NCBI GenBank assembly: GCA_964019335.1
Contig: OZ025743.1
Coordinates: 248,001 to 312,000, forward strand
Length of the DNA stretch: 64,000 bases
Direction of reading: 5' to 3'
Origin: Diplonema japonicum
Taxonomy: Eukaryota; Protista; Euglenozoa: Diplonemea
Below are positions 1,601-55,871 of this stretch, in pieces (the first letter of the stretch is position 1; every line of letters starts with the position of its first letter). The notes under the pieces were generated by a model that saw only the letters and a program-made list of their open reading frames with translations, was not told the origin of the DNA and ran no database searches. The position numbers and the translations under genes were made by a program.

Positions 1601-2915
1601 AACTTTGCTAAGCATAGAGACTGTCGCGTACGGTGCCATCGGTGAGTCAAGAAGGGAGCCGCACAGGTTGATGAAGTGATTCAACATGCGCGACGCCGTT
1701 TCCCTGTGGAACAGGTCGGTGTTGAACTCCAGAGTGAGCTCGTACCCCGTAAGGCGCTCCAAAGCGTTCAGCGTGATGTCGAACTTGCTGATCGTGTTCC
1801 TCGTGTCCACGAAGGACAGCAACAAGTCGTCGCCCAGTTGAGGGTCCATGGGAACGTCTTGCAGAACGAAGCACGCTTGGAACAGAGGGTTGCGGGAGAG
1901 GTCGCGGGCAGGTTGCACGATGTCGACGACCTGCTCAAAGGGAATGTCTCGGTGGGTGTATGCCTTGATGCAGGTGTCCTTTACAATTGTCAAAAGGTCC
2001 TCGAAAGAGCACTTCCCGCTAGAGGCTACTCTGAACACCAAGGTGTTCACGAAGTCGCCCACGCACTTGCTTCCATCACGCCTGCCAACTATGGGCGATC
2101 CCACAGAAACATCGCTAGTGTTGCAATATCTGGACAACAGCACGTTGTACACAGTCAGCAGCGTCATGAAGGTGGTGCAGTTGTTGGCGCTCCCGAAGGC
2201 TTTTAGCCTGTCGGCCACTTCTCTGGGCAGCATCACAGTCACGGAATCGCCGTTGAACGTCTGTCTAGGAGGGCGTGTGAAGTCCAAAGGCAGCTCCAGC
2301 AGCGGTGCGTCAGCAAGGGCATTCTTCCAGTATTCTCCCTGTACCTGCAGCACACTCGGCAGCGCCTGCCGTTGCCATACGGCGTAGTCTGCGTACTGGT
2401 AAGGAAGCTCTTCTTCCTCGTCGGTTTTACCGTTGATCTCTTTGTAGTACCTCTGCGCCAGCTCCTCGACCAAAATGCCAACAGAAGAGCCGTCAGCAAT
2501 GATGTGGTGCACTACTAAGCAGAACACATGGTTTGCTTCTCCCTGTTTCACAAGGCAGCACTTGAACAGTGGGCCTTCAGAGAGACTGAACACGACCTCT
2601 GCTTCCTCTTGGATGATACCACGCAGAAGCTTGTCTTGCTGTCCTGCAGGCTCGGAGCTGATGTCAACGATGGAGAGAGGTGTCGACAGGGTGCATGCAT
2701 CAGATATGATCTGCTTTGGTCCATCGTCATGTTCTTCAAACGTGGTACGGAGGGATTCGTGACGTTCTACAAGGTACTTTACACAGCTCTGCAGCACGTT
2801 GACATCAAGGTGCCCTTCAAACCTCACAACAAGCGGTAGATTGTATGCAGCGCTGTTCGTCGATAGCTGCGACACAATCCACAATCTTTGCTGCGAGTAC
2901 GACACTGGCATCACT
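2..2915 (-). other. NRPS module 12 (partial): C(HHIIADG)-A Thr, cut by the window edge
   Basis: A domain matches module 2 (offset 32007 nt). Confidence 0.87.
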
Positions 2916-20900: not shown

Positions 20901-23900
20901 GGCCCGTTGGGCGATGAAGACAGCGCATCGAGCATGACGATGTAGTAGCTGGCCATTCGCTCGATACTCGCTGCTGTGAATAGTGCGGTGCAGTACTCGA
21001 AAGAGAAACTCAGGGCACCACCTGTCTGTGAGGCAGTTACGGTCAAGTCGAACTTGGATGTTGATGTAGCTGCCTCTAATGGATCGAAGTGGAGGTCGGT
21101 AGAGGTAAAGGTGTCGAGATCGTCAGCCGTGTAGTCGAACATGACTTGGAAGAGCGGGTTGCGCGACTCGTCGTGCGGCACCTGGAGCGCTTTAACGACA
21201 TGGTCGAAGGGTACAGTGCTGTGCTGCAGTGCCTCTTTCATGGCGGTGTTGGTCTGCGCGCAGTGCGAGGCGAAGTTTGCGTCGAGGTCGACACCCAATC
21301 GCAGCGCCATTGTGTTCACGAAGTACCCCACAACGTGCTGCATTTCCTGCCTTCTGTTGGCAACAGGCGTACCGACTACGAAGTCTGTCTGGCTCGTGAG
21401 CTTCGAGAGGAACATAGTAAACGTCGACAGCAACGCTCCAAAGACGGACACCCCTGCAGTGCGAGACACCTCCTCGATCCACTGCGCAACACTTCCAGGT
21501 ACCGTGCACTTCCAAACATCACCCTTTGTAGACTGCACAACAGGTCTAGGGCGGTCAAGCGGAAGCTCGATTGTGGGGTAAGCAGCAAGAACACGCGTCC
21601 AATAGGCAGTGTCTTCTGCAAAGTTAAGGCCCCTCTGCCACACTGCGTACTGGACGTATGTGTAGGGCGGTTGGATTACATCGGAATCGGGTGTCTCGTA
21701 AATAGCTACAAGATCGCTCATTATGATCTTCAGGGACCACTCGTCACTCACAGCATGGTGCATGTTAAGGACGAGGTACCACTGCGAATCTTGCACGATC
21801 ACAGATCCCCTGAACAGGGGCCCTGAACTGAGGTCGAAGGGTGTATCCACCTCTTGCTGGATGGCGCTCTTTGCATGCGACCAAGACTCGCAGCGCACCA
21901 CAGAGAGCTCGATGTCGTGCTGTGGGTTAACTACTTGCAACAGGGTGTCATTCGTGTCGCTGAACACAGTTCGAAGCGCTGCGTGCCTGTTGTACGTCTT
22001 GTTGATGGCGTTCTGCAGCCTGGGGATGTCTAGCTCGCCACCGTCTTCTGTTGCAGTGATCTTTACTACACATGGCATGTTGTACACAGACGTAGACCCC
22101 AAGATCTCTTGCACCACCCATAGCCGCTCCTGTGCGTAACTAGCTTGCTGTTGCGTGCCGGACACCTGCGGTATAATGCTCGTCTCGAAGTCCCCGCTCG
22201 TCATCTTGGACTCTACCAACGCTGCCAGGTCGCAGAACACCTCATGTGCGAAGAATTCCTTCAACTCAATAACTACCTTGAACACCTCCTTGACTCTGAA
22301 CAGCATCTTCACAGCAATCAAAGAGTGGCCGCCTGTGCTGAAAAAGCTATCTCTCCTTCCGGGGCTCTTCAATCCTAGTTCCATCCAGATCTCGGCGAGC
22401 TTCTTCTCAGCACCAGTGAGGGGCTCTTCGTATGTGTCTTTGCTTCGAGACACGGGGTCAGGGAGCGCCTTCCTGTCTACCTTCCCCGAAGTGTTCTTGG
22501 GAAGGGAAGAGAGGAAGAGGAAGAAGGAAGGGACCATGTAAGAGGGGAGAGAGGACTGGAGGGAGGAGCGGAGGGAGAGGGTAAGCTCGTCCTCGTGGAC
22601 TTGGTCCCGAGGGGCCTCCGCCAGAACGATGTAGGCGGCGATCGACGAGGATGCTTGTGACAGGGTGCAGCAGCAGTCTTTCACCTCCACTGCCTTTTGC
22701 TGACGAACAGCCCCCTCCACCTCCCCGAGCTCGATCCTGAAGCCACGAACCTTCACCTGGAAGTCCGCCCGACCGCAGAACACCACCCGCCCGTCCTCCT
22801 TGAACCTCCCAAGGTCCCCTGTCTTGTACATCCTGTCCTTCCCGCTGCTCCCGAAAGGGTCCTTCTTGAAACTCTCCGAGGTGAGGTCCGCCCGACCCAC
22901 GTAGCCACGGGACACCTGAGGACCCCCGATCCAGATCATCCCAGTTGCTCCAACAGGGCACAGCTTCCTCTCAGAGTCGAGGATTCGAACCCTCGTGTTC
23001 GGGAGAGCCCGCCCGATCCCCATCGCCACTTCCGTGTCGTCAGATAGGTCCCCCCGCTTGAAGGTCTCGCAGGTCACCTCCACACAGGTCTCCGTCGGGC
23101 CGTAGCAATTGTGGAACACCGTGTCGTCCCTCGCCCCGGTCATCCACCTCCGAGCCACCTCCGCAGAAGCCGCCTCCCCTCCCGAGTGGATCCTCTTCAG
23201 ATCCCGAAGCCCCGTCCCTTCCACGGATCGCATCACAGAGGGGGTGAGGAACACGCTCTCCACACGCTGTACCTCCAAGAAGTCACGGAGCCCGCTGGTC
23301 CTCTCCTCACCGACAGCCATCGCGAGCCTTGCCCCACCGCACAGGGCGCACAACGTGTCCATCACACTGATGTCGAAGGTGTAGGCGTAGAACTGCAGAG
23401 TCCTCTCCCCTTCACGTCCCACCACGCGTCCCTCCGTTCCCTTCAGAAGGTTCCACAGGTTCCTCTGTTCCACCACCACACCCTTCGGCTTCCCAGTCGA
23501 CCCTGATGTGAACAGGCAGTAGGCCGCAGAGCCTCCCTCCACACAGCCTCTCTTCACCTTCAGTTCTTCAGAAGGAATGTCTTCTTCTTCTTCTTCTTCT
23601 TCCCCGCTTCTTCGTGTGTACAGAACCTGTACCCCGTCCTCCAAGAAGGAGTCACACCCACCGACAGGGCCGTTGCTCACCACCACTCGCACCCCACTGC
23701 TCTTCGCCATGTACCGAAGACGCTCCTCAGGGAGCGACGGGTCCAACGGGACGAACCCTGCCCCGCCCCGGAGGATCCCCACAGTTCCGGTGATCACCTC
23801 CGTCGAGCGCGTGCAGTGGAGACCCACCAACAGCTCCCCTTCGCCGTCCCGCCTCTTCTCCAGCAGTTCCCATGCCACTCTCCGGCTCCTCCTCTCGAGT

Positions 23901-26900
23901 TCGCCGTAAGTTACTGCTTCCGTCTCGCAGGTTACTGCAATCTCGTCCTTCGCCTCCTCCATCCTCTCCTCCAGTGCCTCCACAACGTTCCCTTCCCCGA
24001 AGTCAGCCTCGTTGCTGTTCCACTCCACAAGGAGTCGGCGCGTGTCCTCAGAGGAGATTAGCGACACTTCTTTGTAGGGTGTCTGGGGTGCAGTTGTGAA
24101 GGTGTTGAAGCACATTGCTATCATGTCCAAGACACGCTCTGCCGTGGATTCGTTGAGGACATTTGTGTTGTACTCCAAATCGAGGTGGATGTGCCCTGCT
24201 GTGTTGCGCACAGCGAGCGTCATATCGAAACGTGAAATACCCGTCTCGTAAGTGAGAGGCTCGACCGCGAGGTTGGGGGTCTGCGGGAATGCGGGCTCTT
24301 CGTGGGTGGAGAGCGCTGCCTGGAAGAAAGGGTTGCGGTTCAGCTCGCGGGGCGGTTGACAGATGTCGATGATACGCGAAAAGGGGATATCAGAGTTGTC
24401 CTCTGCTGTCATGGTGACAGCACGTGCCGTCTGCAGAAGGTCGGCAAGGGTGGCGTTTTCGGCGTCGCGGAGCTTCATGCGGAGGACTAAAGTGTTCAGG
24501 AAGAGACCGACGACATTGTGAGTTTGGTGGAGAGCACGATTCGCCACAAAGGTGCCCATCGGGATGTCCTCACTGCCCGTCAACTGCGACAGGGCAAGCG
24601 AGAAGGCCACAAGCGAAGCATGGAACAACGTTGCCTTGTGTGACACGCAGGTATGTGTCAATGCGGCTGTCTCCCTTGCGCCTACGTTTCTGAACACGGT
24701 GTGTCCTTCAAACCCTTGGCGCAAGCTCCTCGGACGGTCAGTGTACTCTACAGTCTCAAGCCCTTCCAGCTCAGCTCTCCAAAACTCTTCTTGCTTGACA
24801 ATCTTTGCTGGTCTGGCAGAGAATGCCTCTCTTTCCCATTCAGCGAAGTCACCATACGTGATGGGAAGATCAGCCAGTTCACACGCGTCACCACCTGTCG
24901 CCTTGCTGTGGTACAGTTCCAAGCATTCTCTAATGACAATACCCAGCGACCACCCGTCTGCGATGATGTGGTGCACGGTGAGGAGCAGCACGAGCTCGTC
25001 CTTCTTCAACTTGACCACCGTGATGCGGAACAGCGGGCCACTCGAGAGGTCGAACGGCTTGCGGACATCGCTTTTGATAACGGCCGCAAGGTAGGCAGAG
25101 AGCTCGGTTTCCTTTGTTGTTTGCGTGAAATCCTTCACTGTGAAAGGGAGATGCGTGGTGATGGGGTTGATACACTGGCGCAGAGTGCCCGTGTGGTCAT
25201 CGCGAACTATGGTAGTACGGAGGGATGGGTGGCGCGACACCACAGCACGCAAGCATGTCAGCAGGAGCTGCAAGTTGACATCGCCCTTCAGCTTCACAGG
25301 GTTCGGGATATTGTTCACAGCCACGTTCTCTTCTAGTTCGCTTACGAGCCATATCCTCTGCTGTGCGATCGACAGCTCGTAAGATTGCTTCTGCTTTGCA
25401 TCGATCACGACACCTGACCCAGCCCCACTGTCACGCAGTCTCCTGACCATTGCTGCCTGTCCCTCGATGGTCGGGTGGTTGAAGATCTCCCTCAAGGGAA
25501 CTTGCACTCCTACCTTCTTTGACAGCTCGCCGCTCACCCTTACAGCCATCAACGAATGCCCACCCACGCTGAAGAAGTTGTCCTGCCTCGAGCAAACTCT
25601 GCCCAGCACCGTGGTCCACACACTCGACACAAGGACCTCATCCTCATCCTGAGGAACATCGATTTCCTCCGAGGCAGCTGTCAAGGAAGGCTTTGGGAGC
25701 TTGCTTCTGTCGACCTTTCCTGAGTGGTTGAGGGGCAGCTTGTCCATTTCGACCACAACAGGTACCATGTAGGAGGGAACTGTCTTAATCATAACCTCCC
25801 CGAAAGTAGTCTTGTTGAAGGTCTCGTCGCCCACAATGTATGCCACAAGCTGTGCATCGGCGCCACTGCCTAAAGCGACCACGCAGGCTTCCTTCACGCC
25901 TTCCACTTCAACAGAGACAGCCTCCACCTCGCCAAGCTCCACACGGAAGCCTCTGATCTTCACCTGGTAGTCCTTACGGCCACCGAATTCCAAGGAACCG
26001 TTTTCAAGCCACCTCCCGAGGTCCCCTGTTCTGTACATTCTGCCATGCTGGCTATCGATGAACTTCTGCGATGTTAGCTCGGGCTTGCCCACGTAGCCGA
26101 TTGCAAGCTGTCGGCCTGTCAAGCACAGCTCGCCGTAGACACCCACAGGGCACGGCTCCATCCCGTTCAGCACATGGCACTGCACATTTGGCGACGGCTT
26201 GCCTATCGGGAGCGTGTGAAAATCGATGTCGCGCACTTCATAGAAGGTTGAGGACACGGTGTTTTCACTCGGACCGTAGTCGTTCCAAAGGGTGCGGTTC
26301 ACCGACCACTTCTTCACAAGAGGAATGGGACAGACATCTCCCGCGGTGATGACATGCACGAGGCTGGGCATGCCCTGGTGTGGGAGGGCCGCCATCAGGG
26401 ACGGTGGCAAAAATGCCATCTCCACCCTGTTGATGTCCACAAACTCGACCAAGGCGTCGCCAAGAAGGTCGGTCTTGTCCTTTGTAACCATCATGGCACC
26501 CCTGCACAGGTAGCAGAAGATCTCCATCACGGACGTGTCGAAGGAAAAATTGTGGAATTGCAGCGTGTGCAGCCCCTGCGTGACCCTTGTTGTCACCGTG
26601 ACCAAGTTGTACAGCCCCGAGTGTCTTAGAGCCACGCCCTTGGGTTTTCCTGTCGACCCAGACGTGTAGATGTAGTAAGCTATGTCGTCCGGCGAGTGCT
26701 GTTTTTCAGGTACGTCGGCCCTCTTCTGAGAGTACCCGGTCACATCGAGCAGTGCCATGGGCATGTTTTGCAACAGGTGTTGTGTGGTGCTCGTCACGAA
26801 GCACATTTTCATCCCGCTGTCTTGTGCGATGTACTTCACGCGGTCCTCGGGCAGTGTCGGGTCAAGAGCAACGTAACAGCCGCCCGCCTTCAACACACCG

Positions 26901-29900
26901 AAGATACAGGCGTACATGATGATGGACCTGTCAATACAGATCCCCACAGGGCTTCCTCTTCTTAGACCTTGGCCTCGTAGGTTCCATGCCAGAGCATTGG
27001 CTAGCTGGTCCAACGCAGAGTATGTGATCTGCACATCAGCGAAGGAGATGGCAACAGTATCGGGGTACTCGGTAGCAGTGTTTTCGAAAAGCTTGTCTAC
27101 CACCACAGGCTGCCATTCTTCTGTGAGGGTGTCGTTCCACTCCAGTTGCTGCTCGACTTCCACGGTGCTCAGCATTCCTACAGAGGATAGCGGGTCTGCC
27201 AACATGCACGGTACTTCTCGGAGGAAGGTAGCTAAGTGCTGCAGCATCTTCTTGGCCGTGTTTCCGTCAAACAGCGCGGTGCAGTACTCAAGCTTCAGCT
27301 GGAGCCCTTGCGACCCTGCGTCCGTCACGAAGAACGTCAAATCGTAGCGCGACTTGCTGCCCTGCATCTCGATCTCTTCGAAGTCGTTGCCGCTTCCTTT
27401 CATCTTCTGCCCGCTCACAAGCATCACTTGGAACAGCGGATGCCTGCTGGGGTCGTACGAAGGCCGCGTAACTTCGACCACCTTCTCAAACGACGTGTCA
27501 GAGTGGCTCATCGCGTCGCTGCACACATTCTTCGCCCTGTCGAGCAGCCCTTGGTATGTGAGAGGGGACGCATCGTTGTCGGTGTTGACCCTCAACACAA
27601 GTAGATTCACAAAGAACCCTATCAAGTCTTCAAGCTGCACCGATGGTCTGTTTGCAACAGGTGTACCTATCACCACGTCACGGCTCCCTGTGTACCTAGT
27701 CAGCATTGCCGACAGGCATGCCACAGAGCACATGAAGAGCGTGTACCCTGATCTGCACAGCTGTCTGAGTTCTGTGATTTGAGTATCCGGGATGACCAGT
27801 GTTTCTGTCGACCCAGCATACGACTGCATTGGCGGCCTGGGGTGGTCAGTGGCAAGCGGGAGCGTTGGGAGGTCACGAAGAGTGGTCTCCCAGAATGAAA
27901 GTTGCCTTGCCTGCTCGTCTTGTTCCACCCAATCACGATGCCACGCTGCGTAGTCGCCGTACTGAATGCTCAAAGGGGGCAAGTGCGGGTCAATCCCCGC
28001 ATGGAGGCTGCGGTACACGGTTGTGAGGTCCTTGACAAGGACATTCAATGACCACGCATCGGCTATGATGTGGTGTATGCAGAGGACGAGGCACGTGCCT
28101 GTGGCAGTTAAAACATGCGTGATACGCAGCAAGGGTGGTATCTGGAGGTCGAATGCCGCGTTCTCTTGTTCCTTCACGAGCTTGGTTATCATGGCGTGCA
28201 GGTTTTCGTCAGAAAGGTGCCTGCAGTCGACCTTCCCAAGAGTGAAGGGAGCAGTGTCGTGGATCGTGGTGGTGTCAGAGGTGGTGAATGAGCACCTGAG
28301 GACCTCGTGCCTGCCGATGACCTTTATGGCAGCCGCTTGCAAGGTGCTGTGGTCAAGAGCACCGCACACCTTCACAGCGTCCACCATGTTGTAGGCTGCT
28401 TTGTCGTCGTCGACAGCATCTAGAAGCCACAGTCTCTGCTGTGCAAGACTAGTCGGCAAGCTTTCCTCAGTCTGCCTCTGTGCTGCTGAAGGTATCTCAC
28501 TGTACGTGCTCGTCCCTTGTTTCGTCTTTATCAGCTCTGCCAGTGCTGAGACTGTGTCGTTTTCAAAGAACTCCTTCATAGTGACAGTAGCGTTCATCCC
28601 GGCCTTCAGGCTGGCAACCACCCGCACAGCGAGCAAGGAGTGCCCACCATTCTCAAAAAAGCTCATTGTAGATGTGATGGTGTCCATCTCTAGCACCTGC
28701 TTGAAGCACTCGGCAACCGTGCACTGCAGTTCTCCGCTGGGCGCCGCACCTTGATCTTTCTGGTATTCCGGTGCTGGCAGCTTCTTTCTGTCTGTTTTAC
28801 CACTGATTAGCTTCGGAAACTCCACAAGTCTCACATAGGCAGATGGCTTCATGTACGATGGCAGCTTCCCAGCGACTTCCTTCTCTAGGTCGTCTGCCTG
28901 TGCCTGCGGTGTCTTGAAGATGACGTAGGCAACGACACGTTTGTCGCCAGGCTTGTCTTCTCTCACCATCACGCACACGTCGCGCACTACAGAGTTTGCA
29001 CGCAGTACGGTTTCGATCTCCCCGAGCTCGATCCTGAAGCCCCTGATCTTCACCTGGTGGTCCAGCCTTCCCACGTACTCGACCTCACCCCCTGCCCAGA
29101 ACCTGCACAGATCCCCTGTCTTGTACAGCATACCCTCCGCGTAGGGGTTTTTGACAAACATCTTGTTCGTGAGCTCCGGCCTGTTAAGGTACCCTCTTGC
29201 AATCTGCACCCCGCTGCAGCACAGCTCACCGTACGCGCCGGGAGGCGCAGAGAGGTTCGTTTTAGGGTCCAAGATGTAGGACTTGCAGTTTGCAGTTGGG
29301 CGCCCGATGGGCTTCATGATGTTAGTTGAGTTCCAGTCCATTTTGTGCCAAACAATCTCGATGGAGCACTCCGTAGGGCCGTACAGGTCATACAACACAC
29401 TGCTTGGGAACCTCTTGTGGAACTGTCTCGCGAGCTGGTTGGACAGAGCTTCGCCAGAAGCAGCAGAGACCCTCACCTTCTTGAACTTTTCAGCGTACTC
29501 TTCGCCGATGACTGTGCAGAACGCCTCGAGCATGGAAGGGACGAAGTGGAGGACTGTGACGTGCTCCTCTTCGATGAAGGAGGCGATGTACGAGGGGTCG
29601 GTGTGGCCTCCAGGCTTCGTGAAGGCGAGGCGTGCCCCTGTCATGAGCGGCCAGAACAGCTCCCACACAGACACGTCGAAGATGTACGGGGTCTTCTGCA
29701 TCACCACATCCTCCCCAGCCACGAGTGGTTCCTTCTCCGCCAGCCACCGCAGCCTGTTCACCGTCCCAGAGTGCTGCAACATCACCCCCTTCGGGAGCCC
29801 AGTCGACCCCGAGGTGTAGATGATGTAGGCGAGGTTCTGTGCCGTCACGCACGATGCGGGGCGCTCCACAGACATCGGAGCAAACACCTCGTCCCACTCC

Positions 29901-32900
29901 GTGTCCAGCTCGCAGCACCACACCCCGGGAGCCTCCGGGACGCGTCCCCTGCACCCTCCCTGCGTCAACACCACCCCTGCCTTGCAGTCGTTCATGATGT
30001 ACAGCGTCCTGTCCTTCGGGTAGCTCGGGTCCACAGGAACGTAGCAGCCCCCGGCCTTCATCACCCCCAGGATCCCCACAGCCATCTCCACACTCCTCTC
30101 CAGCATCAGCACCACGGGCACCTCCGGTCCCACCCCTCGCTGGTGCAGCACGTGCGCCACCTGGTTCGCCCGCTCCTCCAGCTCCCGCCCGCTCAGCACC
30201 CTGTTCTCGTCCGACACCGCCTTCGCGACAGGGTTTTCGTCCACAGCCGCTTCAAACAGCTCGTGCATGCATGGCGCACCGGGGAATTCCCTTGCTGTGT
30301 CATTCCACTCCACTAAGGTTTGGTGAAGCTCCTGAGGGGGAACTAGCGGACAGGTTTCGGGGTCGCAGTCAGGGTTTTCCGCAATGTGCGTGAGAAGTAC
30401 ATCAAACCTGTTCAACAACAACTGCATGGTGGCTGGCGCGAAGAGCTTTGTACAGAATTCCATGCTAAAGGTGTAGTCGCCCGACTGAGACTCTCGTGCG
30501 AAGAGGCACATGTCGAACCTGCTGACCTTCTGGTCGAAGTCATACATTGAAAAGGTAAGGTCGGACACATCGATCTTCTCGAAGGGCGCGTTCTGCAGCA
30601 CAAACATGACCTGGAAGAGAGGATTCCTGCTCATGTCCCTTTCAGGCTGCACTGCCTCAACGACCTTCTCGAAGGGAACGTCTTGGTTGGCATAAGCTCC
30701 TACGCAGGTCTTTCGCATCCTATGGACGAGCTCTTTGAAGGTGCCCGCCTTGGTAAGGTCGAGGCGCAGCGTGAGCGTGTTGACAAAGAGACCGATGAGG
30801 TTGTGCAGCTCGGTGCGGTTCCTGCCTGCGATGGGGGTACCGATGCAGATGTCCTGCTGATTACTGTAGCGTGACAACAGCACATTGAAGCAGGCGGCGA
30901 GCACCATGAATATGGTTGCGTTGCACGACCTTCCAATCAGCTTCAGCTTTTCCATCACGGCAGCCGGCACCACATGACGCACCACCGAACCCTCAAAGCT
31001 CTGCACACGCTTCCTCGGATAATCAGTAGGGAACTGCAACGTTGGGGCTTCTGCAAGAACAGTCTTCCAGTACTCTACTTGCTGATGAAGGGTGTCAGAC
31101 TTGGTGAGAGCAGTCTTTTGCCACAACGCGTAGTCGCCGTACTGCACAGGCAGCTGTGTCAAGCTTGGGGTGCGTCGTTCTTTGAGTGCTTTGTATATCT
31201 CGGTAACCTCTTCCACGAGGACGTTCAGGGACCACCCGTCCGACACGATGTGGTGCATGACCACCAAAAGCATCGAAAGCTCCTCTGTAATATTGTACAG
31301 CGTCACCTTCATCAAAGGCGCCTCGGCGAGGCTCATAACTACTTTGGAATCGGTCTCCAGCATGGTGTCAACCTGCGACATGTCCAGCCCTGCGTGCTGG
31401 AGGTCTTTGACGTCTACCTGTACTGTCTTGTCGGTAACTATTTGGATCAGGTTTTCGTCGGCATCCTGTCCAAACGAAGTCCTCAGCACTTCATGCCTTT
31501 CACACAACACTGTCATGACTTCTTGAAGGGTGTCGTTGTCCACACGGCCTGTCACCTTGACGGCGCCTGAGATGTTGTACACTCCCTGTAAATTCTTCCC
31601 ACCTTCAATCACTTCGATGAGCCACATCCGCTGCTGTGCGAACGAAGCGGGCAACAAGTCAGCACCAGACGCCCTCGGGGTCAGTTCAGGAAGGTCCGTG
31701 TGCAGCGCTTGCAGCTCTTCGATGATGCTTGCCACGTGCACGATGTCGGAGTGCTCGAAGAACTGCTTCAACGTCACTTCCACGCCGAACGTGTCCTTCA
31801 CAACACCCAGCAGCCTCACGGCAAGCAGCGAATGGCCACCCATATCAAAGAAGTCAGAGTCACGCGACACCCTCTCAACACCGAGCAGCGACGTGATGAT
31901 ACCCTCCAACATCTCCTCAGTGACACCTACAGGTTGAGTGTAGTCATCACCAACATCGATCTGCGGCTTTGGCAGTGCCCTCCTGTCAGTCTTCCCTTGT
32001 GCAGTGAGGGGCCAAGCCTCGAGGTGGACGATGGCGGAAGGGACCATGTAGGCGGGGAGCTTGGAGTCGAGGAGTGTGTTGACAGAGGGAGCGGCGTCGG
32101 CGTCGGCCGTGTGCCCCCTCGCGATCACGTAGGCGACGATCCTCTTGTCCCCAGGGATGTCCTCCCTGACGAGACACAGAACGTCCGCTGTCTCTGGGTG
32201 CTGGCGAATCACGTTTTCGATCTCCCCGAGCTCGATCCTGAACCCCCTGATCTTCACCTGGAAGTCCACCCGCCCGATGTACTCCACCGTCCCGTCCGCG
32301 AGCCACCGCCCCACGTCCCCGGTCTTGTACAGCCGCCCGCCCTTCCCGGCCGCTCCGAACGGGTCCGCCACGAACCTCTGCGCCGTCAGCCGCGGTTGGT
32401 TCTGGTACCCCCGCGCCAGCTGGTACTTGCCCCCGACGTGCAGCTCCCCACACACCCCGAGGGGCACCGGTTCCATCGCCTCGTTCAACAGGTACATCGT
32501 GAAGTCCTTCAGCGGGGTTCCGATGTTGCTCTGGAAGGCCCGCGACATCACCTCCTCCGTGATCTCCTTGATCGTCACGTGAACAGTTGTCTCTGTGATC
32601 CCGTACATGTTCACCAACCGGGGCTGCTTGTACCCGAACCTCTCGAACCACTCCTTCAGGTTAGCCAGTTCCAACTTCTCTCCCCCGAAGACCACGTACC
32701 TCACTTGTAGTTCTTTCTTCTTCTTCTTCTTCTCCTTCTTCCCCTCCTCCTCCTCCTGTCCTTCCCCGAGAGCGTAAGGAATGAGTTGGTAGAAAGCAGA
32801 GGGTGTCTGGTTCAACACCGTCACCCCCTCATCCACGAGGAGCTCGTAGAAGTCGGGTGGGGATCGAGACACCAAATACGGAACAACCACAAGCTTCCCC

Positions 32901-35900
32901 CCGTAGCAGAGGGCCCCGTACAGTTCCCAGACACTGAAGTCGAAGGCGGAGCTGTGAAACATCGTCCAGCAGTCCCGTTCTCCGAACCCGTAGAATTCCT
33001 CCGATGCCCGCAGCAGGTGCACCACGTTTCGGTGGCAGATGAAGATCCCCTTCGGCCTTCCTGTGGAACCGGAGGTGAAGATGATGTAGCACAGGTTCTT
33101 GCTTGTCGCCTCCCTCTTCTTTGGGGCAGCTTCCTCCATCACTCCGCTTCCGCTGTTCTCTCCCTCCCCGCCCTTCTCCATGTAGAAGAGCTCTCCCTTG
33201 AAGTCGAGCTCGGCGAGGGCGGCCTTGTGCTCCTCCCGCGTCACCACGTACATCATTTTGCAGTCCTCGATCATGTAGGCGAGGCGGTCCTGCGGGTAGG
33301 TCACGTCCAACGGGATGTACCCTCCCCCTGCCTTCAGGACTGCCATGATCCCCACCACCAGCTCAAGGGACCTCTCCACGTACACCCCTACCAGTACGTC
33401 GGGACCCACCCCCGCTCTTTTCAGGTGGGCAGCCACACGAGACGCCGCAACGTCCAGCTCCTTGTACGTCAGGCGTTCTCCTCCGTACACCACAGCCGTC
33501 CGCTCCCCGTGCGCCGCAACGCACTTCTCGAACATCCCGTGAAGCGTCTCGTCGCACTCCACATCCTCCTGACGGTCGTTCCACTCCACCAGCATCTGGT
33601 GCTGCTCCACCTTTGTGAGTATCTGAGCAGTGGTAACGTCCTGCACGGGTGAGCTGCTTAGACTGTCGCACAGGTTGGTGAAGTGCGAAAGCATCAAACT
33701 GGCAGTGCTCTCCCTAAAGAGGTCGGTGTTGTACTCCACATAAAGGTCGACAGACCCGTCTGTCCGGATAGTGGACCCGAAGACGAGATCGAACTTAGAG
33801 ATGTGCGTGTCGACGTCAAGCTGCGAGAGCTGCATGTCGGACAGCAGGGATGTGGTCTCGAGGGGTGGCTCATCATGCTGGACAAAAACAACCTGGAACA
33901 GAGGGTTGCGGGACATGTCACGTTCTGGCTGGATGGCCTCCACGAGTTTTTCGAAAGGCAGTTCCTGATGTGCCAGCGCGGACTCGACCGTTTGCTTGAT
34001 GTTGGTGATAACGTTGAGGAAGGACCCCGTCGCCGACATGCGCAGCACAACGGTGTTCACGAAGTCGCCGATCATTTCCTGGAACTCAGCACGGCTCCTG
34101 CCCGACACCGGTGAGCCCACCACGATGTCCTTCTGGTTGGAATACCTCGAAAGCAGCACGGTGAGGACCGCCAGCTGCAATACAAAAGGTGTTGCGGAGT
34201 GTTTCCTGCCCACATCCTGCAGCTTCTTGAATACGCTCGCAGAGAGGGTACTCTTCACCCTGGCGCCGTTGAAGGTCTGCAAGGGGGGGCGTTGAAAGTC
34301 AGTGGGAAGCTCCAAGAGGGGAAGGTCGGCAAGAGTGTGCACCCAGTAGTCAGAAAGCGTCTTTAAGAATGTGGAGTCGGCAAGTCGCTCTCGTTGCCAA
34401 AGGGCGTAGTCGGAGTACTGCACGGACAGCGCAGGGAGTGAGAAGTTGTGTCTCTCCTGCATGGTTTTCATGCTGCTGTAGGCTTTCGCAATGTCTGCCA
34501 TGAAGACAAGCATGCTCCACCCGTCAAACACAGTGTGGTGAGACGTGATGACCAACACGTTGTCATCTTTGGCACACACCACCACCTGTGCCCTTAACAG
34601 AGGTGGTGCCGTCAGGTCGAACATCGTCCTCGCCTCTTTGCTCATCAGGTCCTGCATGAAGCTCGCGTTGTACCCTCCTGGGCAGTTGGTTACCCTTAGC
34701 TTCAACTCACAGCTTTCGATACGCTGGCAGGGCGGTGGCCCCTCGTGCAGGCCTGTTCTCAGCGCCTCGTGCTTCTCGAGTACCTTCTGCAAGCTGTCCT
34801 CCAGCAGGCCGATGTCCAGTTCGCCCTTGATCCTGACACCGCCAGGCATGTTGTAAGCCATGGCCCCCTTGTCGATGCGATCCACTACCCACAGCCTCTG
34901 CTGGGAGTACGACATTGGTGCTTCGCCGAGTCCTCGCTTTTCCACTTTGCTCGCGCTGCCTTGGCTTTGTTTCACGTACCCGGCCACGCCCTTAATGCTG
35001 GGATCCTTGAAGAGCTGCTTGAAAGGAACCTCTACCTGTAGTGTCCTAGTGATCAACCCAAGCAGTTGGACGGCTAGAAGCGAGTTTCCCCCGGCGCTGA
35101 AGAAGCTGTCCTTTACACCGATTCCGAATTTCAAAACTTCACCAAAGAGTTCTCCGATTTTCTGCTCCACCTCATCAAGTGGTTCTTCTAAATCATTGAC
35201 TGCAGTGGTAGGCGTTGGATCAGGGAGCGCCTTCCTGTCTACCTTCCCCGAAGTGTTCTTGGGAAGGGAAGAGAGGAAGAGGAAGAAGGAAGGGACCATG
35301 TAAGAGGGGAGAGAGGACTGGAGGGAGGAGCGGAGGGAGAGGATAAGCTCGTCCTCGTGGACTTGGTCCCGAGGGGCCTCCGCCAGAACGATGTAGGCGG
35401 CGATCGACGAGGATGCTTGTGACAGGGTGCAGCAGCAGTCTTTCACCTCCACTGCCTTTTGCTGACGAACAGCTCCCTCGACCTCCCCGAGCTCGATCCT
35501 GAAGCCACGAACCTTCACCTGGAAGTCCGCCCGACCGCAGAACACCACCCGCCCGTCCTCCTTGAACCTCCCAAGGTCCCCTGTCTTGTACATCCTGTCC
35601 TTCCCGCTGCTCCCGAAAGGGTCCTTCTTGAAACTCTCCGAGGTGAGGTCCGCCCGACCCACGTAGCCACGGGACACCTGAGGACCCCCGATCCAGATCA
35701 TCCCAGTTGCTCCAACAGGGCACAGCTTCCTCTCAGAGTCGAGGATTCGAACCCTCGTGTTCGGGAGAGCCCGCCCGATCCCCATCGCCACTTCCGTGTC
35801 GTCAGATAGGTCCCCCCGCTTGAAGGTCTCGCAGGTCACCTCCACACAGGTCTCCGTCGGGCCGTAGCAATTGTGGAACACCGTGTCGTCCCTCGCCCCG

Positions 35901-38900
35901 GTCATCCACCTCCGAGCCACCTCCGCAGAAGCCGCCTCCCCTCCCGAGTGGATCCTCTTCAGATCCCGAAGCCCCGTCCCTTCCACGGATCGCATCACAG
36001 AGGGGGTGAGGAACACGCTCTCCACACGCTGTACCTCCAAGAAGTCACGGAGCCCGCTGGTCCTCTCCTCACCGACAGCCATCGCGAGCCTTGCCCCACC
36101 GCACAGGGCGCACAACGTGTCCATCACACTGATGTCGAAGGTGTAGGCGTAGAACTGCAGAGTCCTCTCCCCTTCACGTCCCACCACGCGTCCCTCCGTT
36201 CCCTTCAGAAGGTTCCACAGGTTCCTCTGTTCCACCACCACACCCTTCGGCTTCCCAGTCGACCCTGATGTGAACAGGCAGTAGGCCGCAGAGCCTCCCT
36301 CCACACAGCCTCTCTTCACCTTCAGTTCTTCAGAAGGAATGTCTTCTTCTTCTTCTTCTTCTTCCCCGCTTCTTCGTGTGTACAGAACCTGTACCCCGTC
36401 CTCCAAGAAGGAGTCACACCCACCGACAGGGCCGTTGCTCACCACCACTCGCACCCCACTGCTCTTCGCCATGTACCGAAGACGCTCCTCAGGGAGCGAC
36501 GGGTCCAACGGGACGAACCCTGCCCCGCTCCGGAGGATCCCCACAGTTCCGGTGATCACCTCCGTCGAGCGCGTGCAGTGGAGACCCACCAACAGCTCCC
36601 CTTCGCCGTCCCGCCTCTTCTCCAGCAGTTCCCATGCCACTCTCCGGCTCCTCCTCTCGAGTTCGCCGTAAGTTACTGCTTCCGTCTCGCAGGTTACTGC
36701 AATCTCATCCCTCGCCTTTTCCATCCTCTCCTCCAGTGCCTCCACAACGTTCCCTTCCCCGAAGTCAGCCTCGTTGCTGTTCCACTCCACGAGAAGTCGG
36801 TGTCGCTCTGTTGCAGTGATCAACGACACATCGGTCAGGGGTAGCACGGTGTTAGCGACGACCTGCTCCAAGACGTTCTTGAGGCCCGACAAGAGGCGCT
36901 TGGCGGTGCTAGCCTTATAGAGGTCAGTGTTGTACTCCAACTGGAAATGGATCTCGTTGCCGACCTCCTGTGCGGTCATCGTCATGTCGAATTTGGAGGT
37001 GTAGGCAGGGGCGGGGAGCTGCGTGATGGTGCACGACCTGAGGGCGATGGGCTTGGTGGGGGCATTGCCGAGGATGAAGCATATCTGGAAGAGCGGATTG
37101 CGGCTGGTGTCACGCGGGAGGTTTAGCTCGTCAACCAGCTTCTCAAAAGGCAAGTCTTGATTCGTGAAAGAGTTCATGGAGTTCTCCTTCAGGGACGCAA
37201 CGAGGGCCTCGAAGCTCATGGACTGCACAACCTCCGCCCTTATGCAGACGGTGTTAATGAATAGGCCCAGCATTTGGGTCATTTCTTGCTCGGGCCTATT
37301 CAGAACAGGTGTTCCGATGGTAAGGTCGGTCTCGCCAGTCACCTTTGCAAGAACAGCTTTCCAAGCAGCCAGCAGGACTGTGAAGAGAGTCCCGTTCGTC
37401 TTCTTGACCAAGCTGCGCACACCGCTGGCAACTTTCTCGTTTACGACGATCCACTCAGCAGCGCCAGGCAGGGATAGAACCTCAGGACGCGGGTAGTCGG
37501 TGGGTACCACAGCTGGTGTAAACCCCTTCAAGGTCTTCTTCCAAAACAATGTCTGTTCCGCAAGCGCACCTGGACTGCTGTACCATATCCGCTGGCTGCA
37601 AGAGTAGTCGACGTACTGCAGCTTTGGGGGATGCACTGTATACGGTGTACCCAAGGACAGATTGTTGTAAATACGTGTGAACTCTGATATAAAATGCCTC
37701 AGCGACCACCCATCAGTGATGATGTGGTGCACGGCAAAGACGAGAAGGATATCGTCAGTGTCCTGGTGCAGCAGCGTCACACGGAAGAGAGGGAAGCAGC
37801 TGAGGTCGAAAGGCGTGACCGCCGCTGCCTTGAGGGATGCATCGAGGTTGTCGGTGTGTGTGTGCAGTACGTTGGGCGTGACCTCCAACCCACTGGCAGG
37901 GAGAACCTGCTGGTACGGGTTCCCGTCCTCGTCGTTAAAGACTGTCCGCAGCACTTCGTGTGCCTCAACAAGTATTTCCAAGCTTTTCTTCACTGCGGCA
38001 ACGTCGAGCACACCCCGCACGGAGCACATCGCATGCAGCACATAAGCTTCGCTGCCCTGCAACCTGTCCAGCACCCACATCCTCTGTTGCTGCACAGACA
38101 TTGTGTACCTTCCCACTTGGTTCCTCTTCGTCTGTCGTACCCGCATCCTTCCGGATCGCACCCTATCAGGGGATGCTTGTGTCGCATTTTGCTTTCTTGT
38201 GGTGCTCTCTTGCATGCTATGGATCGCCTTTGCAAGATCGCAGACTATGGGATATTTAAACAGCATTCCGGGGGAGATCGGGCTGCGCAACCCCATCCAC
38301 GTGCTGATGTCCTGCGCGATGGCGACCATGCTGATAGACTCGATCCCCAGGTCGGCCAAGCTCACGGAGGGGGAGACCAAGTCAGGCGTGGCAGCGTACA
38401 TTTTCAGCAATAAAAGCAGTTTCTGCGTCAGCTGCTCGAGCGTCTTCGTGCTGCGCGATTCGCTGACGGCAGTAGGGCTTCTCAGCACTGTGGTGACGCT
38501 CTTTTCAAATGCTTTCCAGTTGATCCAAGCGGCGGTGATGACCCCACCGTCGGAGCTCATCAGCCTGCTCAAGGCTGCCGTGGTCTGGTCCTGCGTGAAC
38601 TTCATGAGCCCGATGGAGGTAAGGGCGTCAACTGCTGACTTCCCTTCACGGGCCAGCATTCCAGTCTGGCCAAGGACACCCCAATGGACAACCAGGCAGG
38701 GAAGTCCAGCAGATTTCCTCACTGAGCACAAGCCGTCCAATGCGGCATTGGCTGCAGCGTAGCACAGCTGGCCTTGCATCGGGAGGCAAGCTGCCACCGA
38801 TCCAAAGCACACGAAGTGGTCCAGGTCGCAGTGCAGGGTCGCTTCGTGGAGGTGCATGGCAGCCATGACCTTTCCTGCGAAGGCGTTATCCAAGTTCTGC

Positions 38901-41900
38901 TTCTCAACACCTGAGAGCAAACCTTTCTCCAGCACGCCAGCTAGGTGGAAGATCCCCTTGATGCACGGCATGTCCATGGCTGTCATAAACAGCTTGTCGA
39001 CGTCTTCCCTCACAGACATGTCACCTTGGAACACAGCCACGCTCACTCCTTTATTCGCTCTCGCGTTGTTGATGGTCTTCTGCGACGCTGTGTCAGGTGC
39101 ACGTCGCCCCACAAGGACGATGTGCTTCGCGCCTCTGTTCACAGCCCATTTAAACACGGCCTGCCCGTACCCACCCAGACCGCCAGTGATGATGTACGTG
39201 CCTTCCTCGGCAAAGCTCACATCGGGAAGGGAGGGCAGCGTGAACCTTGTTGGGCTGGACAGCCGTGGCACCAATTTGCCGTCAGCCGTGAGCACAACCT
39301 CTGCCGAGCTGGGGTCATCAAAGTGGCACAGCACCTCCCATCCTGCTGTGTCCCATACAGAGCTCGACTGACTGCCGGGTACATCCAACACAGTGATGGG
39401 GTTCGGCAGCTCTTGCCTTGCTGCCCTTACAGCGCCCCACAAAGCACATCCAGCAGTCGCTTTATCGACTTCCGACAGGTCCCTCTGCGAGGCTTGAGAA
39501 CCTTGAGTAACAACGACCAGTGGGATGTCTTTTCGTTTTATGTCGGCGGCTAGCCACTTGAGCACGCCGAGCAAGCCACGAACGGCGTCTAGTGTGTCAC
39601 ACCAAGCGTAAACCAACATGCCCACCGGCCCCTTCAGTACGTCCCCTGTCGAGCCCATCGTGCATTGCATGAAGGAGTCGCGGTCCTTTAATGCTGTGCC
39701 CAAGGTGACGGTACGCACGTCAGTGCCGGCAGCTCGTAGGGAAGCAGAGAGGTGCTCGTCTGCCGAGTCGTAGACGTAAACAGGCATGTCGATGGGAGGA
39801 GGTGTCCTTCCAACGTAAGGTGCAGGAGTCCACTCCGTCTGCAGCAGCCACTCGTGCTCGAAGACGTCGTTCTGCGTGTGGCTGACGGGCTTGTGCTTAG
39901 TGACAGGGTCGGAGGGCTCCACCCAGAACCTTTTACTGTTCCATTGATAGGTGGGTAGCGACATAAACTTTCCCTTTGCGACGGGATCCCAGTTCACGTG
40001 CACGCCCTTGGACCACAGCCGACCAAGCTCTTCGAGGATCACCTGCTGCTCCGCCTGCTTGCGCTTCATGGACGACGCCACGATGATGCTTTGTTGCTGA
40101 GCCGCAGCGACTGTCGCAATATAGGGGGACATGGCTGTGTGCGGCCCGATCTCTACGAAGCACGACACTCTCTGCTTCAAGGACTCAACCACAGCCTCCT
40201 CAAACTTAACAGATGTGCAGAGCTGCTCACCCCAGTAGCCCGCGCTCTCCGGGACACCACCGGTTGTCAGGAACTTGCAGCAGCTGTCATGATGTGTGAC
40301 ACCCTCGGCGAGGACCAATGCAGTGACATCTTCCGAAACCTTTTGCATTGCGTGCGAGTGCAGCAGGATATTGCTTGGCAGGGTCCTCGTGTACAGGCCT
40401 TCGGCGTTCAGCTCTTCAAGCACAGCTGCGACGCTCTCTGGTGCCCCGCCGAAGGTCACGTCTGTCGGTGAGTTGTAAGCGGTGATATCAACATGCACCC
40501 CAGCAATGGAGCATGTCTCTTGCAGCTTTGCAGCACTGATGCCCACCGCCACCATGGTGCCCCGGGCTGCAAGAGAGAGAGCTTTGGCCCTGACCAGCAC
40601 AACCTTGGCGCCATCCTTGAGAGACAGCATCCCGCAGCACACTGCGGCAGCTACTTCACCGTGAGAGTGACCGATAACTAGATCAGGGGTGACGCCCCAC
40701 GACTTCCACAGTTTGGCGAGGGATACTTGCACAGCAAAGGTAGCAGCGTGGGCAAGGCCAGGGTCGCGGAGCTTGGCGGGGTTTGTCAGAATGTTGCTCG
40801 GGAGGTATTCAAGGACGCCTAGCGACTCGAAGACAGCCTCCACATCTTCCATTGCAGTTCGGAAGACCGCTTCGGTTTTCTGCAGCTCAGTGCCCATGCC
40901 TGCCCACTCGTTCCCAGCACCTGAGAACACAAAACCCACCTGCGGGCTGTTGACGGGTATCCTCTGAGGAGGGGCTTCCGCCTCGAGAAGCTTCTTCACC
41001 AACTCCTTCGCATCGCTCCCTACAACAGCGGTCCTGTACTCGTGATGTGTTCTGTACACGGAAGCTGTCCTGCACACGTCTGACAAATTATATATCTCGT
41101 CCGAGTCCAGCTTGCCGACCAGCGCACGAATGTTCGCGCCAAGTGCTTGCGAGCTCCTCCCCGACACTGGTAGGAGGTAGTTCCTCTTCACATCACCCAA
41201 TACTTCCACAGCAGGGCTCCCAGGAATGGCCTTTGGCGCCTCCGCAAGGCACAAAGCAGCCATGACACCATCGGGAGCGGCCAGACAGTGCACCAAACAT
41301 GCTCTTGCATCTAATGACAGCAGTTTCGTGGGTACGGTGAGACCATCTGTCACTGAAGAGGAAGGGGATGTGAAATGGATGGCAGCGGGCACTGCACAGT
41401 GATGGAGTGAAAGCGCCGCTTTGATAAGTCCAGCGACACCCTGAGCAGCACCCATGAAACCAAAGTTGTTGGAGGCTGTACCAAGGAACACGGGGTTTCC
41501 CTCTTCCAAGCAGAGTGCGGTGCGGATGGCCTCAGCCTCTTCCGCGTCGCAGCTGGGAACCCCTGTGGCGGATGTCTCAACGAAGGCGACGGCAGATGTC
41601 TCGACGGCGCTACGTGAAAGTGTCTGGGTGATGACCTTGACCCTGTCCTCGCGCTCTCGACCCGTCCCCGTGCACCCGCCTTTTATGGTGGCGTAGATTT
41701 TGTTGCCAGCCGCAATGGCATCCTGCAGAGGTCGTAGGATCACAATGCCGATACCCTCTCCAGGGAGCAACCCGGAGGCGGCTGCGTCGAAGGCTGCAGA
41801 GCGCTCGTCCGACGTGGACAGCAAACCTGCTGCTTTGTAAGCCTCGACCGTGGCGGAGTCGAGGTGGAGCTGCGCACCGCCAGCAATAGCCATGGAGCAC

Positions 41901-46702: not shown

Positions 46703-46899
46703 TGCATAGTGTTGTTAACCTCCCCTTCTCTCTGGGGGGGGGGGGGGGTTTTAATTTCTTATGAAAGAGAGGAGGGAAATGAAACATACAATGAAAGGAG
46801 GTTTATTAAGATTATTTTTAACTGAAGAAGAAACTCAAAGTACAGGACAAGCCCCCGCTAGAGGGCCGCCCTATGGGAGGGGGGGGGGGGGGGGGGGGG

Positions 46900-47411
46900 G
46901 ATCTGTTAATACTCCCCTTCTGGAGCATTGCTTTCATCCCGATTGTGGCTGTGAGCGTCTTGTGGAGTCGTGTGATGCGGTCCCGCTTGTAGGCTGCCTT
47001 CAAATCCATCAGCTTGTCGTGCGTGGACTGGGTAGCAAAAATGGGCCTCCTGGAGAAGCCTATAGCTGCCTTTCCTCCTATGGCGATGAGGGACTTCACC
47101 CTTTTCTGCTCATCCGCTGGGAAGGGGCGTCGCTTCTTCCGTGCCCTGCACGCTGTGTTTATCTTTACGATTAGGGCCTTGATTCTGCGTGCCCTATCTT
47201 CCAGCAGGCTTCCTAATGATTTACCGGTCGTCCATTCGAAGTCAATGGCTAGCTCCACCGCCGACACCTCCGAGGTGGTGTCCTTCTCCACCCAGCGCAG
47301 CTGTGACAACCATTGTAGCAGCGGGTTCAGGTACTGGGACAGGACCCCACTCACTCCTTCGAGCTCGCCTGCCAAGAAAAAAAGATTTCCGGGCCTTTGA
47401 ATGTGCGACAA
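46900..47411 (-). mobile_element. Possible 5'-truncated non-LTR retrotransposon remnant
   Basis: WLSQLRW...VSAVELAIDFEWTTG resembles, from memory, C-terminal segments of protist LINE ORFs. No RT domain is present, and the ORF runs into homopolymer DNA. Confidence 0.3.
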
Positions 47412-47548
47412 TGGGGGGGGGTCTAAAAAAGCTCGAAATTCGTGTTTTTTTTCAGAAAACGCACTTCTGGGTAAATTTACACACTCACGAACGAATTTGG
47501 CCTAATTTCGATCCCCCCCCCCCCCCCCCCCTCCCTCCCTCCCTCCCC

Positions 47549-47999: not shown

Positions 48000-48142
48000 G
48001 GGGGGGGGGGGGGGGGGGGAGTGTCCTTGGGGAGGAATCACATTACTTTTTTTTTCTCTTGCCCTCCACCAAGTCATCTGTGAAAATCTTTTTTTGAAAA
48101 AAAAAAAAAAGAAAGCATCGCATCGAGAAAGTGTTTCATTCA

Positions 48143-54451: not shown

Positions 54452-54482
<31 letters not shown>

Positions 54483-55826: not shown

Positions 55827-55871
<45 letters not shown>

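What the first reader, a model, noticed from the sequence alone, without database searches (positions are those of the whole stretch)
41240..42440. Ketosynthase has lost all three catalytic residues while AT, KR and both ACPs stay intact: a possible new starter-loading strategy
Seen: DTACSSS reads DSGSSSS, EAHGTG reads ETSATG, KSNIGH reads SNNFGF, and the SFGFGGTN motif is gone. GHSHG (AT), GGLGGYG and YAAAN (KR) and the ACP serines are retained. Known: KSQ/KSS loading domains keep the two His residues for decarboxylation, and KS0 domains usually keep the Cys. Losing all three removes both condensation and transacylation. Inference: the KS is only a structural or dimerisation scaffold; the AT loads a ready-made acyl unit (for example a 3-oxoacyl-CoA) onto ACP2, the KR reduces it, and C1 transfers it to residue 1.
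Basis: partly seen in the sequence, partly recalled or inferred. Interest (0 to 1): 0.8.

Follow-up and report, generated by a model that had tools for sequence, protein, structure and literature searches.

The report
Dead ketosynthase in giant diplonemid synthetase
A giant peptide-building enzyme of a single-celled eukaryote (likely a diplonemid) starts with a chain-extending domain that has lost all its catalytic residues yet is conserved, also in a distant relative, so it likely survives as a pairing scaffold while the intact transfer domain beside it would load a ready-made acyl starter.

Summary
The KS at 41225-42445 (minus strand) has Cys->Ser, His->Ser, Lys->Ser and His->Phe and no SFGFGG loop. 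It is the only one of 1046 KS domains examined to lose all four residues. It lies in an intronless eukaryotic ORF of at least 14,754 aa: pseudo-FAAL, ACP1, KS*, AT, KR, ACP2, then 12 C and 12 A domains.

It is no relic. A diplonemid-labelled transcriptome protein (P0116, 50% identical) has the same layout and has also lost Cys, His1 and Lys. A diverged copy shows 10 silent and 0 replacement changes in the KS. The fold is predicted intact, and the predicted dimer interface is the best-conserved part. The FAAL is dead too, and both ATs share a remodelled pocket.

Best reading (0.5): KS* is a dimer scaffold, the AT loads a ready-made acyl-CoA on ACP2, the KR probably reduces it, and C1 caps residue 1. 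Main rival: condensation by a separate KS. Triad-less loading KSs are already described (lavencidin LadA1), so this is a new variant. The pair of dead domains, the KR and the protist host are what is new.

The parts
2..44263 (-). Intronless hybrid PKS-NRPS ORF, at least 14,754 aa, running off the window end. Likely start is the ATG at 44263; the frame is open to 44635, but that stretch is poly-A-derived Lys runs.
42734..44263 (-). Pseudo-FAAL: FAAL-type adenylation domain with the P-loop, HDMGL, RTGD and the A10 Lys lost
   Evidence: (PF00501, E 5.5e-12); A10 read
42497..42694 (-). ACP1, GIDS motif, Ser553 at 42605-42607; resembles N-terminal bacterial ACPs that precede a KS
41225..42445 (-). 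Pseudo-ketosynthase KS*: Cys770Ser, His898Ser, Lys931Ser, His936Phe, SFGFGG loop lost
40025..40933 (-). Acyltransferase: Ser-His dyad and Arg kept, pocket remodelled (GAG for GQG, His for Gln63, GHSHG, LLHS)
38672..39202 (-). Ketoreductase: NADPH motif and catalytic Lys, Ser, Tyr and Asn kept; LEK instead of LDD
38204..38446 (-). ACP2, atypical GIES motif, Ser1976 at 38336-38338
36860..38113 (-). C1 condensation domain, HHIITDG intact; best solved matches are elongation-module C domains (Txo2, TycC, Txo1)
2..36826 (-). NRPS part: 12 A domains, 11 T domains, 11 further C domains; no epimerase seen; end of the gene outside the window

Best explanation
The ketosynthase has lost its catalytic Cys, both His and the Lys, and is likely kept as a folded dimer-forming scaffold, while the intact AT would load a ready-made acyl group from acyl-CoA onto ACP2, the KR would reduce a 3-oxo group, and C1 would join the acyl group to the first amino acid. 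The unit likely descends from a bacterial-type FAAL-ACP-KS-AT-KR-ACP starter in which both chain-making steps were switched off (fatty-acid adenylation by the FAAL, Claisen extension by the KS) and the AT pocket was retuned. Shown: loss of the residues in two lineages, conservation of the domain, intact motifs in AT, KR, both ACPs and C1. Predicted: the fold and the homodimer. Inferred: the AT substrate, use of the KR, and a 3-hydroxyacyl-capped peptide of 12 or more residues. Rough odds for the steps: KS* non-catalytic and structural 0.8; AT loads the final starter without any condensation 0.55; that starter is 3-oxoacyl and is reduced by the KR 0.35-0.4.
For: (1) The ortholog P0116 (50% identical in the KS, sister branch with SH-aLRT 100) reads DTGASSS, ETAAAG, SGNTGH. 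Cys and His1 are replaced by different residues than in the window (Ala against Ser), so no new catalytic residue is shared at those two sites. (2) Of 40 strongly conserved columns in the C-terminal half, the window keeps 16 and P0116 keeps 19, against a minimum of 25 in 867 active KSs and 32 in the KSQs. In the N-terminal half they keep 46 and 48 of 57. (3) Diverged run X9: KS 10 silent and 0 replacement changes, ACP1 plus linker 7 and 0, pseudo-FAAL 24 and 15 codons; Fisher p 0.021 for KS against FAAL. (4) AlphaFold2 model with pLDDT 93.7, VIA Z 61.0, rmsd 1.4 A over 392 residues to GfsA KSQ. (5) Homodimer score 0.71 against a best control of 0.00; runs agree in at least 85% of contacts, pLDDT at least 85; the mark was reached by 20 of 30 solved pairs and 1 of 23 single chains. 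This may reflect likeness to solved KS dimers. (6) Predicted interface residues in the N-half are 26 of 34 identical between the orthologs, against 116 of 204 elsewhere in that half (p 0.037); 1.6% of 7778 matched pairs of active KSs reach this level (the pairs are not independent). (7) Both ATs share Glu14, His63, GHSHG and Leu200 and have lost Gln11; His after the Ser occurs in only these 2 of 674 ATs. (8) The FAAL is dead too, so nothing in cis can load ACP1 with a fatty acid. (9) Precedent for a triad-less loading KS beside an altered AT: LadA1.
Against: The AT keeps Arg117 (654 of 672 other ATs have it), the residue that binds the carboxylate of malonyl-type extenders (recalled). ACP1 keeps its Ser in both orthologs and shows no replacement change in X9, yet has no role in this scheme. 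C1's best solved matches are elongation-type rather than starter-type C domains. ACP2's GIES motif is atypical. There are no selection data for the KR, and for the AT only the comparison with P0116; X9 covers neither. Only one ortholog was found, and P0116 ends at the start of the KR. Most X9 contigs over the KS have depth 2-5, and 2 of 19 differences near contig ends were not listed. Over the whole KS the interface excess alone is not significant (28 of 43 against 180 of 350, p 0.11).
Confidence: 0.5

Rival explanations
1. Condensation still happens but is done in trans. A separate active KS (pairing with KS* as in KS/chain-length-factor pairs, or split off as in mycobactin MbtC/MbtD) joins an acyl group on ACP1 to an extender on ACP2, and the KR reduces the product.
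For: Everything for one extension cycle except KS catalysis is kept: ACP1 Ser in both orthologs with 7 silent and 0 replacement changes, AT Arg117, intact KR. The AT region matches the NCBIfam MbtD model (E 3e-44, far below its cut-off). That MbtD is AT-KR-ACP working with a stand-alone KS is recalled; the paper was not held.
Against: It needs two outside partners, because the FAAL is dead too. The malonyl-pocket residues Gln11, Gln63 and Phe200 are changed in both orthologs. No other KS lies in the window. A homodimer is predicted.
Confidence: 0.22
2. The AT loads a simple or dicarboxylic acyl group (acetyl, malonyl, succinyl or similar), or relays an acyl group from ACP1 to ACP2, and the KR is a bystander. 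The peptide is N-acylated without reduction.
For: Arg117 kept and extra His residues in the pocket. LadA1's ATL is proposed to take acetyl-CoA. ACP1 Ser is conserved.
Against: The KR keeps the NADPH motif and the catalytic Lys, Ser, Tyr and Asn (36 of 45 conserved columns, within the range of 536 other KRs), while the FAAL and KS beside it have visibly decayed.
Confidence: 0.18
3. KS* has gained a new catalytic job with other residues, or decarboxylates without His.
For: Rare residues shared by the two orthologs occur near the motifs (for example Arg874, Ser931, Gln941). The best structural matches are KSQ domains (tied with ordinary KSs).
Against: The Cys, His1 and His2 positions differ between the orthologs (Ser/Ala, Ser/Ala, Phe/His), the HGTGT and SFGFGG loops have eroded differently in each, and the pair does not fall inside the KSQ clade.
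Confidence: 0.06
4. The whole PKS part is a decaying relic and C1 takes its acyl donor from elsewhere.
For: Two of its enzymes are dead and ACP2 is atypical.
Against: The frame is open over 2,400 codons. There are no replacement changes among 17 differences in ACP1-KS (P about 1e-6 under neutrality for the KS alone). The layout is conserved in an ortholog at about 43% identity over 1300 aa.
Confidence: 0.04

Closest known systems
Lavencidin LadA1 loading module (KSL-ATL-ACP), Streptomyces lavendulae; PMC12093942, passages read and one supplement look-up
   Same: A loading KS without the Cys-His-His triad, proposed to have neither decarboxylase nor condensation activity; its AT keeps the catalytic residues with altered neighbours and is proposed to take another substrate.
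   Different: It feeds a polyketide line, not a C domain. No KR, upstream pseudo-FAAL or ACP is described in the passages read. Bacterial. An in-silico proposal only.
RimA / PimS0 loading proteins (CoA ligase-ACP-KSS-AT-ACP); PMC4540446, passages read
   Same: The same order of adenylating domain, ACP, Cys->Ser KS, AT and ACP.
   Different: [quoted passage not shown] There is no KR and the acceptor is a KS. Here both His and the Lys are gone, and the ligase motifs too.
KSQ loading domains and trans-AT KS0 domains; PMC7327777, passages read
   Same: Non-condensing KS domains; a structural role is suggested for KS0.
   Different: KSQ has Gln for Cys and decarboxylates; the 138 KSQs examined all keep both His. 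KS0 typically lacks only the HGTG His and is more common in AT-less lines. Here Cys and both His are lost and the AT is in cis.
Bacterial FAAL-ACP-KS-AT-KR-ACP-C lipopeptide starter units (family knowledge recalled; 27 FAALs taken from fetched proteins and loci)
   Same: Identical domain order; FAAL-specific sequence features remain recognisable; likely the ancestor.
   Different: FAAL and KS are both catalytically dead, the AT pocket is remodelled, and the host is a eukaryote.
Mycobactin MbtC/MbtD (recalled; NCBIfam name)
   Same: An AT-KR-ACP unit that delivers a 3-hydroxyacyl group to an NRPS.
   Different: There an active stand-alone KS does the condensation; here no such partner is known and a dead KS is fused in.

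Membership tests
KSQ/KSS decarboxylating loading KS | Cys replaced by Gln or Ser | tested here: met
   Ser770; Ala in the ortholog
KSQ/KSS decarboxylating loading KS | Both His and the Lys retained | tested here: not met
   Ser, Ser, Phe in the window; 138 of 138 KSQs read HKH
KSQ/KSS decarboxylating loading KS | Groups with the KSQ clade | tested here: inconclusive
   Outside the starred KSQ clade, but on a long branch with an unresolved position; quick tree of 100 of 1046 rows, no one-clade test
trans-AT KS0 | HGTG His missing | tested here: met
   ETSATG
trans-AT KS0 | Cys retained for transacylation (recalled) | tested here: not met
   Ser in the window, Ala in P0116
trans-AT KS0 | Module without its own AT | tested here: not met
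   AT in cis with the Ser-His dyad
Triad-less loading KS (LadA1 KSL type) | Cys-His-His absent in the starter module | tested here: met
   description
Triad-less loading KS (LadA1 KSL type) | AT catalytic residues kept, neighbouring residues altered | tested here: met
Triad-less loading KS (LadA1 KSL type) | AT loads a ready acyl-CoA directly on the ACP | not testable with these tools
   needs a biochemical assay; also unproven for LadA1
FAAL-ACP-KS-AT-KR-ACP-C lipoinitiation unit | Domain order | tested here: met
FAAL-ACP-KS-AT-KR-ACP-C lipoinitiation unit | FAAL P-loop, RTGD and A10 Lys intact | tested here: not met
   PQDNPGTPIP, RTRE, no Lys; Gln at A10 in P0116
FAAL-ACP-KS-AT-KR-ACP-C lipoinitiation unit | Active KS triad | tested here: not met
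KS/CLF-like or MbtC/MbtD-like split condensation | An active partner KS encoded elsewhere | not testable with these tools
   no whole genome held; none in the window

The most novel reading that the evidence does not exclude
Diplonemids run a lipopeptide assembly line of 1.6 MDa or more per chain whose bacterial-type starter was rewired in the eukaryote. FAAL and KS became two pseudo-enzymes, the dead KS is kept to dimerise the line, and a retuned AT-KR-ACP unit makes a 3-hydroxyacyl cap in one step from the host's own 3-oxoacyl-CoA pool. That would be a condensation-free way to start lipopeptides, and a secondary-metabolite pathway that my paper searches did not find described for this group.
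Probability: 0.35. Interest if true: 0.8.

Novelty: new variant of a known kind. Interest (0 to 1): 0.62.

Why it matters
It gives a clean natural case of a ketosynthase held by selection after losing all its catalytic residues, which makes the structural role suggested for inactive KS domains directly testable. The remodelled AT (GHSHG, found in 2 of 674 ATs) is a candidate for a new starter specificity, useful for attaching chosen acyl caps to peptides. It also points to large nonribosomal lipopeptides in diplonemids. Searches for Diplonema or diplonemid with polyketide or nonribosomal peptide found no relevant paper. The D. papillatum genome paper mentions neither in its main text and lists three NRPS orthogroups only in a supplementary table.

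Tried and rejected
Shifted but intact triad: rejected by pairwise and multiple alignment. Assembly error: rejected. Descent from KSQ, suggested by the Gly before the Cys position (60 of 138 KSQs against 17 of 885 Cys-type KSs): not supported by the tree, which is unresolved.

More orthologs: three protein searches (each scored about 8000 candidates; lengths 714-2035, 715-2344 and 274-919 aa; best 120 shown), one representative search (best 150, all large multi-domain proteins at 29-37% identity) and one metagenome scan (78 loci, best segments 27-46%) gave only P0116. Proteins above 2344 aa were not searched by the word-index tool, so full-length orthologs may exist. The plasmid search gave only 29-31% matches in its top 8 rows.

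The single-sequence model of the pseudo-FAAL was unusable (pLDDT 34.7). No RNA holder was listed; X9 is only guessed to be RNA. No genome was held, so no search for a partner KS was possible. Earlier-finding look-ups by sequence and by words were empty. Paper searches for triad-less scaffold KSs, SalC and 3-oxoacyl-CoA starters returned nothing; one search gave the LadA1 paper, and one search gave 10 listings, of which one was read in passages. bioRxiv supplements and most subscription journals were not visible and may hold precedents.

Full report
Setting. The finding lies in one minus-strand frame that is open from 44635 to beyond the window's left end. The first 125 codons are Lys runs from poly-A tracts, so the likely start is the ATG at 44263, giving at least 14,754 aa without introns. 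Pfam gives the order: weak AMP-binding domain, ACP, KS, AT, KR, then condensation, adenylation and carrier domains. Motif counts give a second ACP, 12 C, 12 A and 11 T domains, and no epimerase was seen. The long upstream ORFs lie on the same strand. They include a biotin carboxylase (propionyl-CoA carboxylase alpha-like by my reading) and an ETF alpha, both interrupted by poly-A stretches. The closest KS relative is a EukProt protein labelled Hpha_TRINITY. The same label is used among the taxa of the D. papillatum genome paper's gene-family table, and I read it as Hemistasia phaeocysticola. Earlier AI notes on this genome call it Diplonema (unchecked). The host is therefore likely a diplonemid.

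Observation. Alignment to solved KS domains places Ser on the catalytic Cys, Ser on the HGTG His, Ser on the Lys and Phe on the second His, in register. The SFGFGG loop reads HCLAAPDG. Of 1046 distinct KS domains cut from the fetched proteins, 867 read C-H-K-H and 138 read Q-H-K-H; only the window lacks all four, and only the window and P0116 lack Cys, His1 and Lys together. This set is enriched for hits to the query. Contigs of runs X1 and X4 are identical to the window over the KS (either may be its source).

The loss is old. P0116 (1339 aa; FAAL end, ACP, KS, AT, start of KR) reads DTGASSS, ETAAAG and SGNTGH, keeps GLDS and GHSHG, and has Gln for the FAAL's A10 Lys. The two KSs are sisters (SH-aLRT 100) on a long stem and lie outside the KSQ clade; their deeper position is unresolved (100 of 1046 rows: the 45 best-scoring, 15 random KSQ, 10 other Cys-less, 30 random). 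The TRINITY label indicates a transcript assembly, so the ortholog is likely expressed.

The loss is tolerated but the domain is kept. Run X9 holds a copy 95-99% alike. In ACP1-KS, 17 of 19 differences were listed and all 17 are silent (KS 10, ACP1 and linker 7). In the pseudo-FAAL, the 40 differences shown (of 91 in that call) give 24 silent and 15 replacement codons, pN/pS about 0.23. X9 covers all four dead-site codons unchanged. Depth over most of the KS is only 2-5, but sequencing errors would not all be silent.

What is kept is the scaffold. Erosion is concentrated in the C-terminal half, which carries both His, the Lys and the malonyl-binding loops: 16 and 19 of 40 conserved columns kept, against a minimum of 25 in active KSs. 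The N-terminal half is near normal, with 46 and 48 of 57 kept. The fold is predicted intact (pLDDT 93.7; Z 61.0, rmsd 1.4 A over 392 residues to GfsA KSQ). A homodimer scores 0.71 against 0.00 for the best of three controls. The mark was reached by 20 of 30 solved pairs and 1 of 23 single chains, and since KS dimers are solved the pass may be from memory. Independent of that score, the predicted interface is more conserved between the two dead KSs than the rest of the N-half (26 of 34 against 116 of 204, p 0.037); active pairs matched for background identity average 53% there, and 1.6% of 7778 reach the observed 76%. Taken over the whole domain the excess is weaker (p 0.11).

The neighbours. 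The N-terminal domain is FAAL-derived by its remaining features but lacks the P-loop, HDMGL and RTGD (profile of 27 FAALs) and the A10 Lys; searches agree on the adenylation family. The AT keeps Ser, His and Arg117. Both orthologs replace Gln11, Gln14, Gln63 and Phe/Ser200, and both have His after the catalytic Ser, which none of the other 672 ATs shows (FabD-style numbering recalled). The KR keeps its catalytic residues. ACP1 is 41% identical to its ortholog and up to 38% to other ACPs, so it is not specially conserved beyond its Ser motif. C1 has HHIITDG, and its best solved matches are Txo2, TycC and Txo1.

Mechanism. With FAAL and KS both dead, the simplest scheme that uses what remains is this: the AT takes an acyl group from CoA and puts it on ACP2, the KR reduces it if it is 3-oxo, and C1 transfers it to the residue on T1. 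KS* would hold the dimer and position the AT. Trypanosomatids make fatty acids with elongases on CoA esters (recalled, not checked for diplonemids), which could make both lost steps redundant. Against it stand the retained AT Arg and the retained ACP1 Ser, which fit condensation by a KS in trans; I could not test that without a genome. I put the best reading at 0.5, trans condensation at 0.22, simple acyl loading with an idle KR at 0.18, new KS catalysis at 0.06 and relic at 0.04.

Comparison with what is known. KSQ decarboxylates and KS0 typically lacks only the HGTG His (PMC7327777, passages). RimA has the same ligase-ACP-KSS-AT-ACP order but is thought to select or decarboxylate its starter (PMC4540446, passages). 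LadA1 has a loading KS with no triad beside an altered AT, proposed to have no enzymatic function (PMC12093942, passages). A triad-less loading KS is therefore not new in kind. New, as far as my ten searches reach, are the pair of dead domains, a KR inside such a starter feeding an NRPS, the evidence for selection on the dead KS, and the host. Diplonemid NRPSs appear only as three orthogroups in a supplementary table of PMC10161547 (absent from D. papillatum there), and P0116's id was not found in those files.

Verdict. Observation confirmed; interpretation partly supported; new variant of a known kind; interest 0.62.

Noticed in passing
window 35217-36800, 22455-24051, 3248-4836; 32008-33615 and 1-1607; 18921-20869 and 6129-8077; 28811-30325 and 16043-17557: A domains occur as near-identical DNA copies within the gene (A1/A5/A11 over 99%, A2/A12 99.9%, A6/A10 with its T domain 99.7%, A3/A7 90% with changed pocket residues), while the 12 C domains are only 25-40% identical. 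This suggests recent A-domain or A-T swapping inside one gene; some homogenisation by the assembler cannot be excluded.
   Followed up: partly
window 33076 and 1069 (A2, A12): The pocket code DFWNVGMVHK is Thr-type (code recalled). A3 and A7 read DVWHASLIEK and DVWHGSLIEK, Ser-like by recall. The other codes (DIMFHGCVEK, DTMFIADVSK, DASQAMSVSK, DPLMVAACEK, DAWLVALIEK) I could not assign.
   Followed up: partly
window 28075, 21760, 5734, 2509: C4, C6 and C11 have HHxxxDA, HHxxxDE or HHxxxDA instead of DG, and C12 reads DGSS; no epimerase domain appears in the 12 modules seen.
   Followed up: no
window 52854-54847 and 55782-56861 (minus): A biotin carboxylase gene (propionyl-CoA carboxylase alpha-like) and an ETF alpha gene, both broken by short poly-A-rich stretches that look like introns, lie upstream on the same strand. 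Both belong to acyl-CoA metabolism, but the adjacency may be chance in a polycistronic genome.
   Followed up: no
window 57289-64000 (minus): ORF of at least 2236 aa with no Pfam match and an internal repeat (63382-64000 against 61765-62383, 87% identical).
   Followed up: no
window 46850-48050: Intergenic stretch with long C and G runs, inverted-repeat-like blocks and a 197-aa ORF; possibly a mobile-element remnant.
   Followed up: no
window 42734-44263: The pseudo-FAAL is still under purifying selection (pN/pS about 0.23) although catalytically dead, so it may have a docking or structural role of its own.
   Followed up: partly
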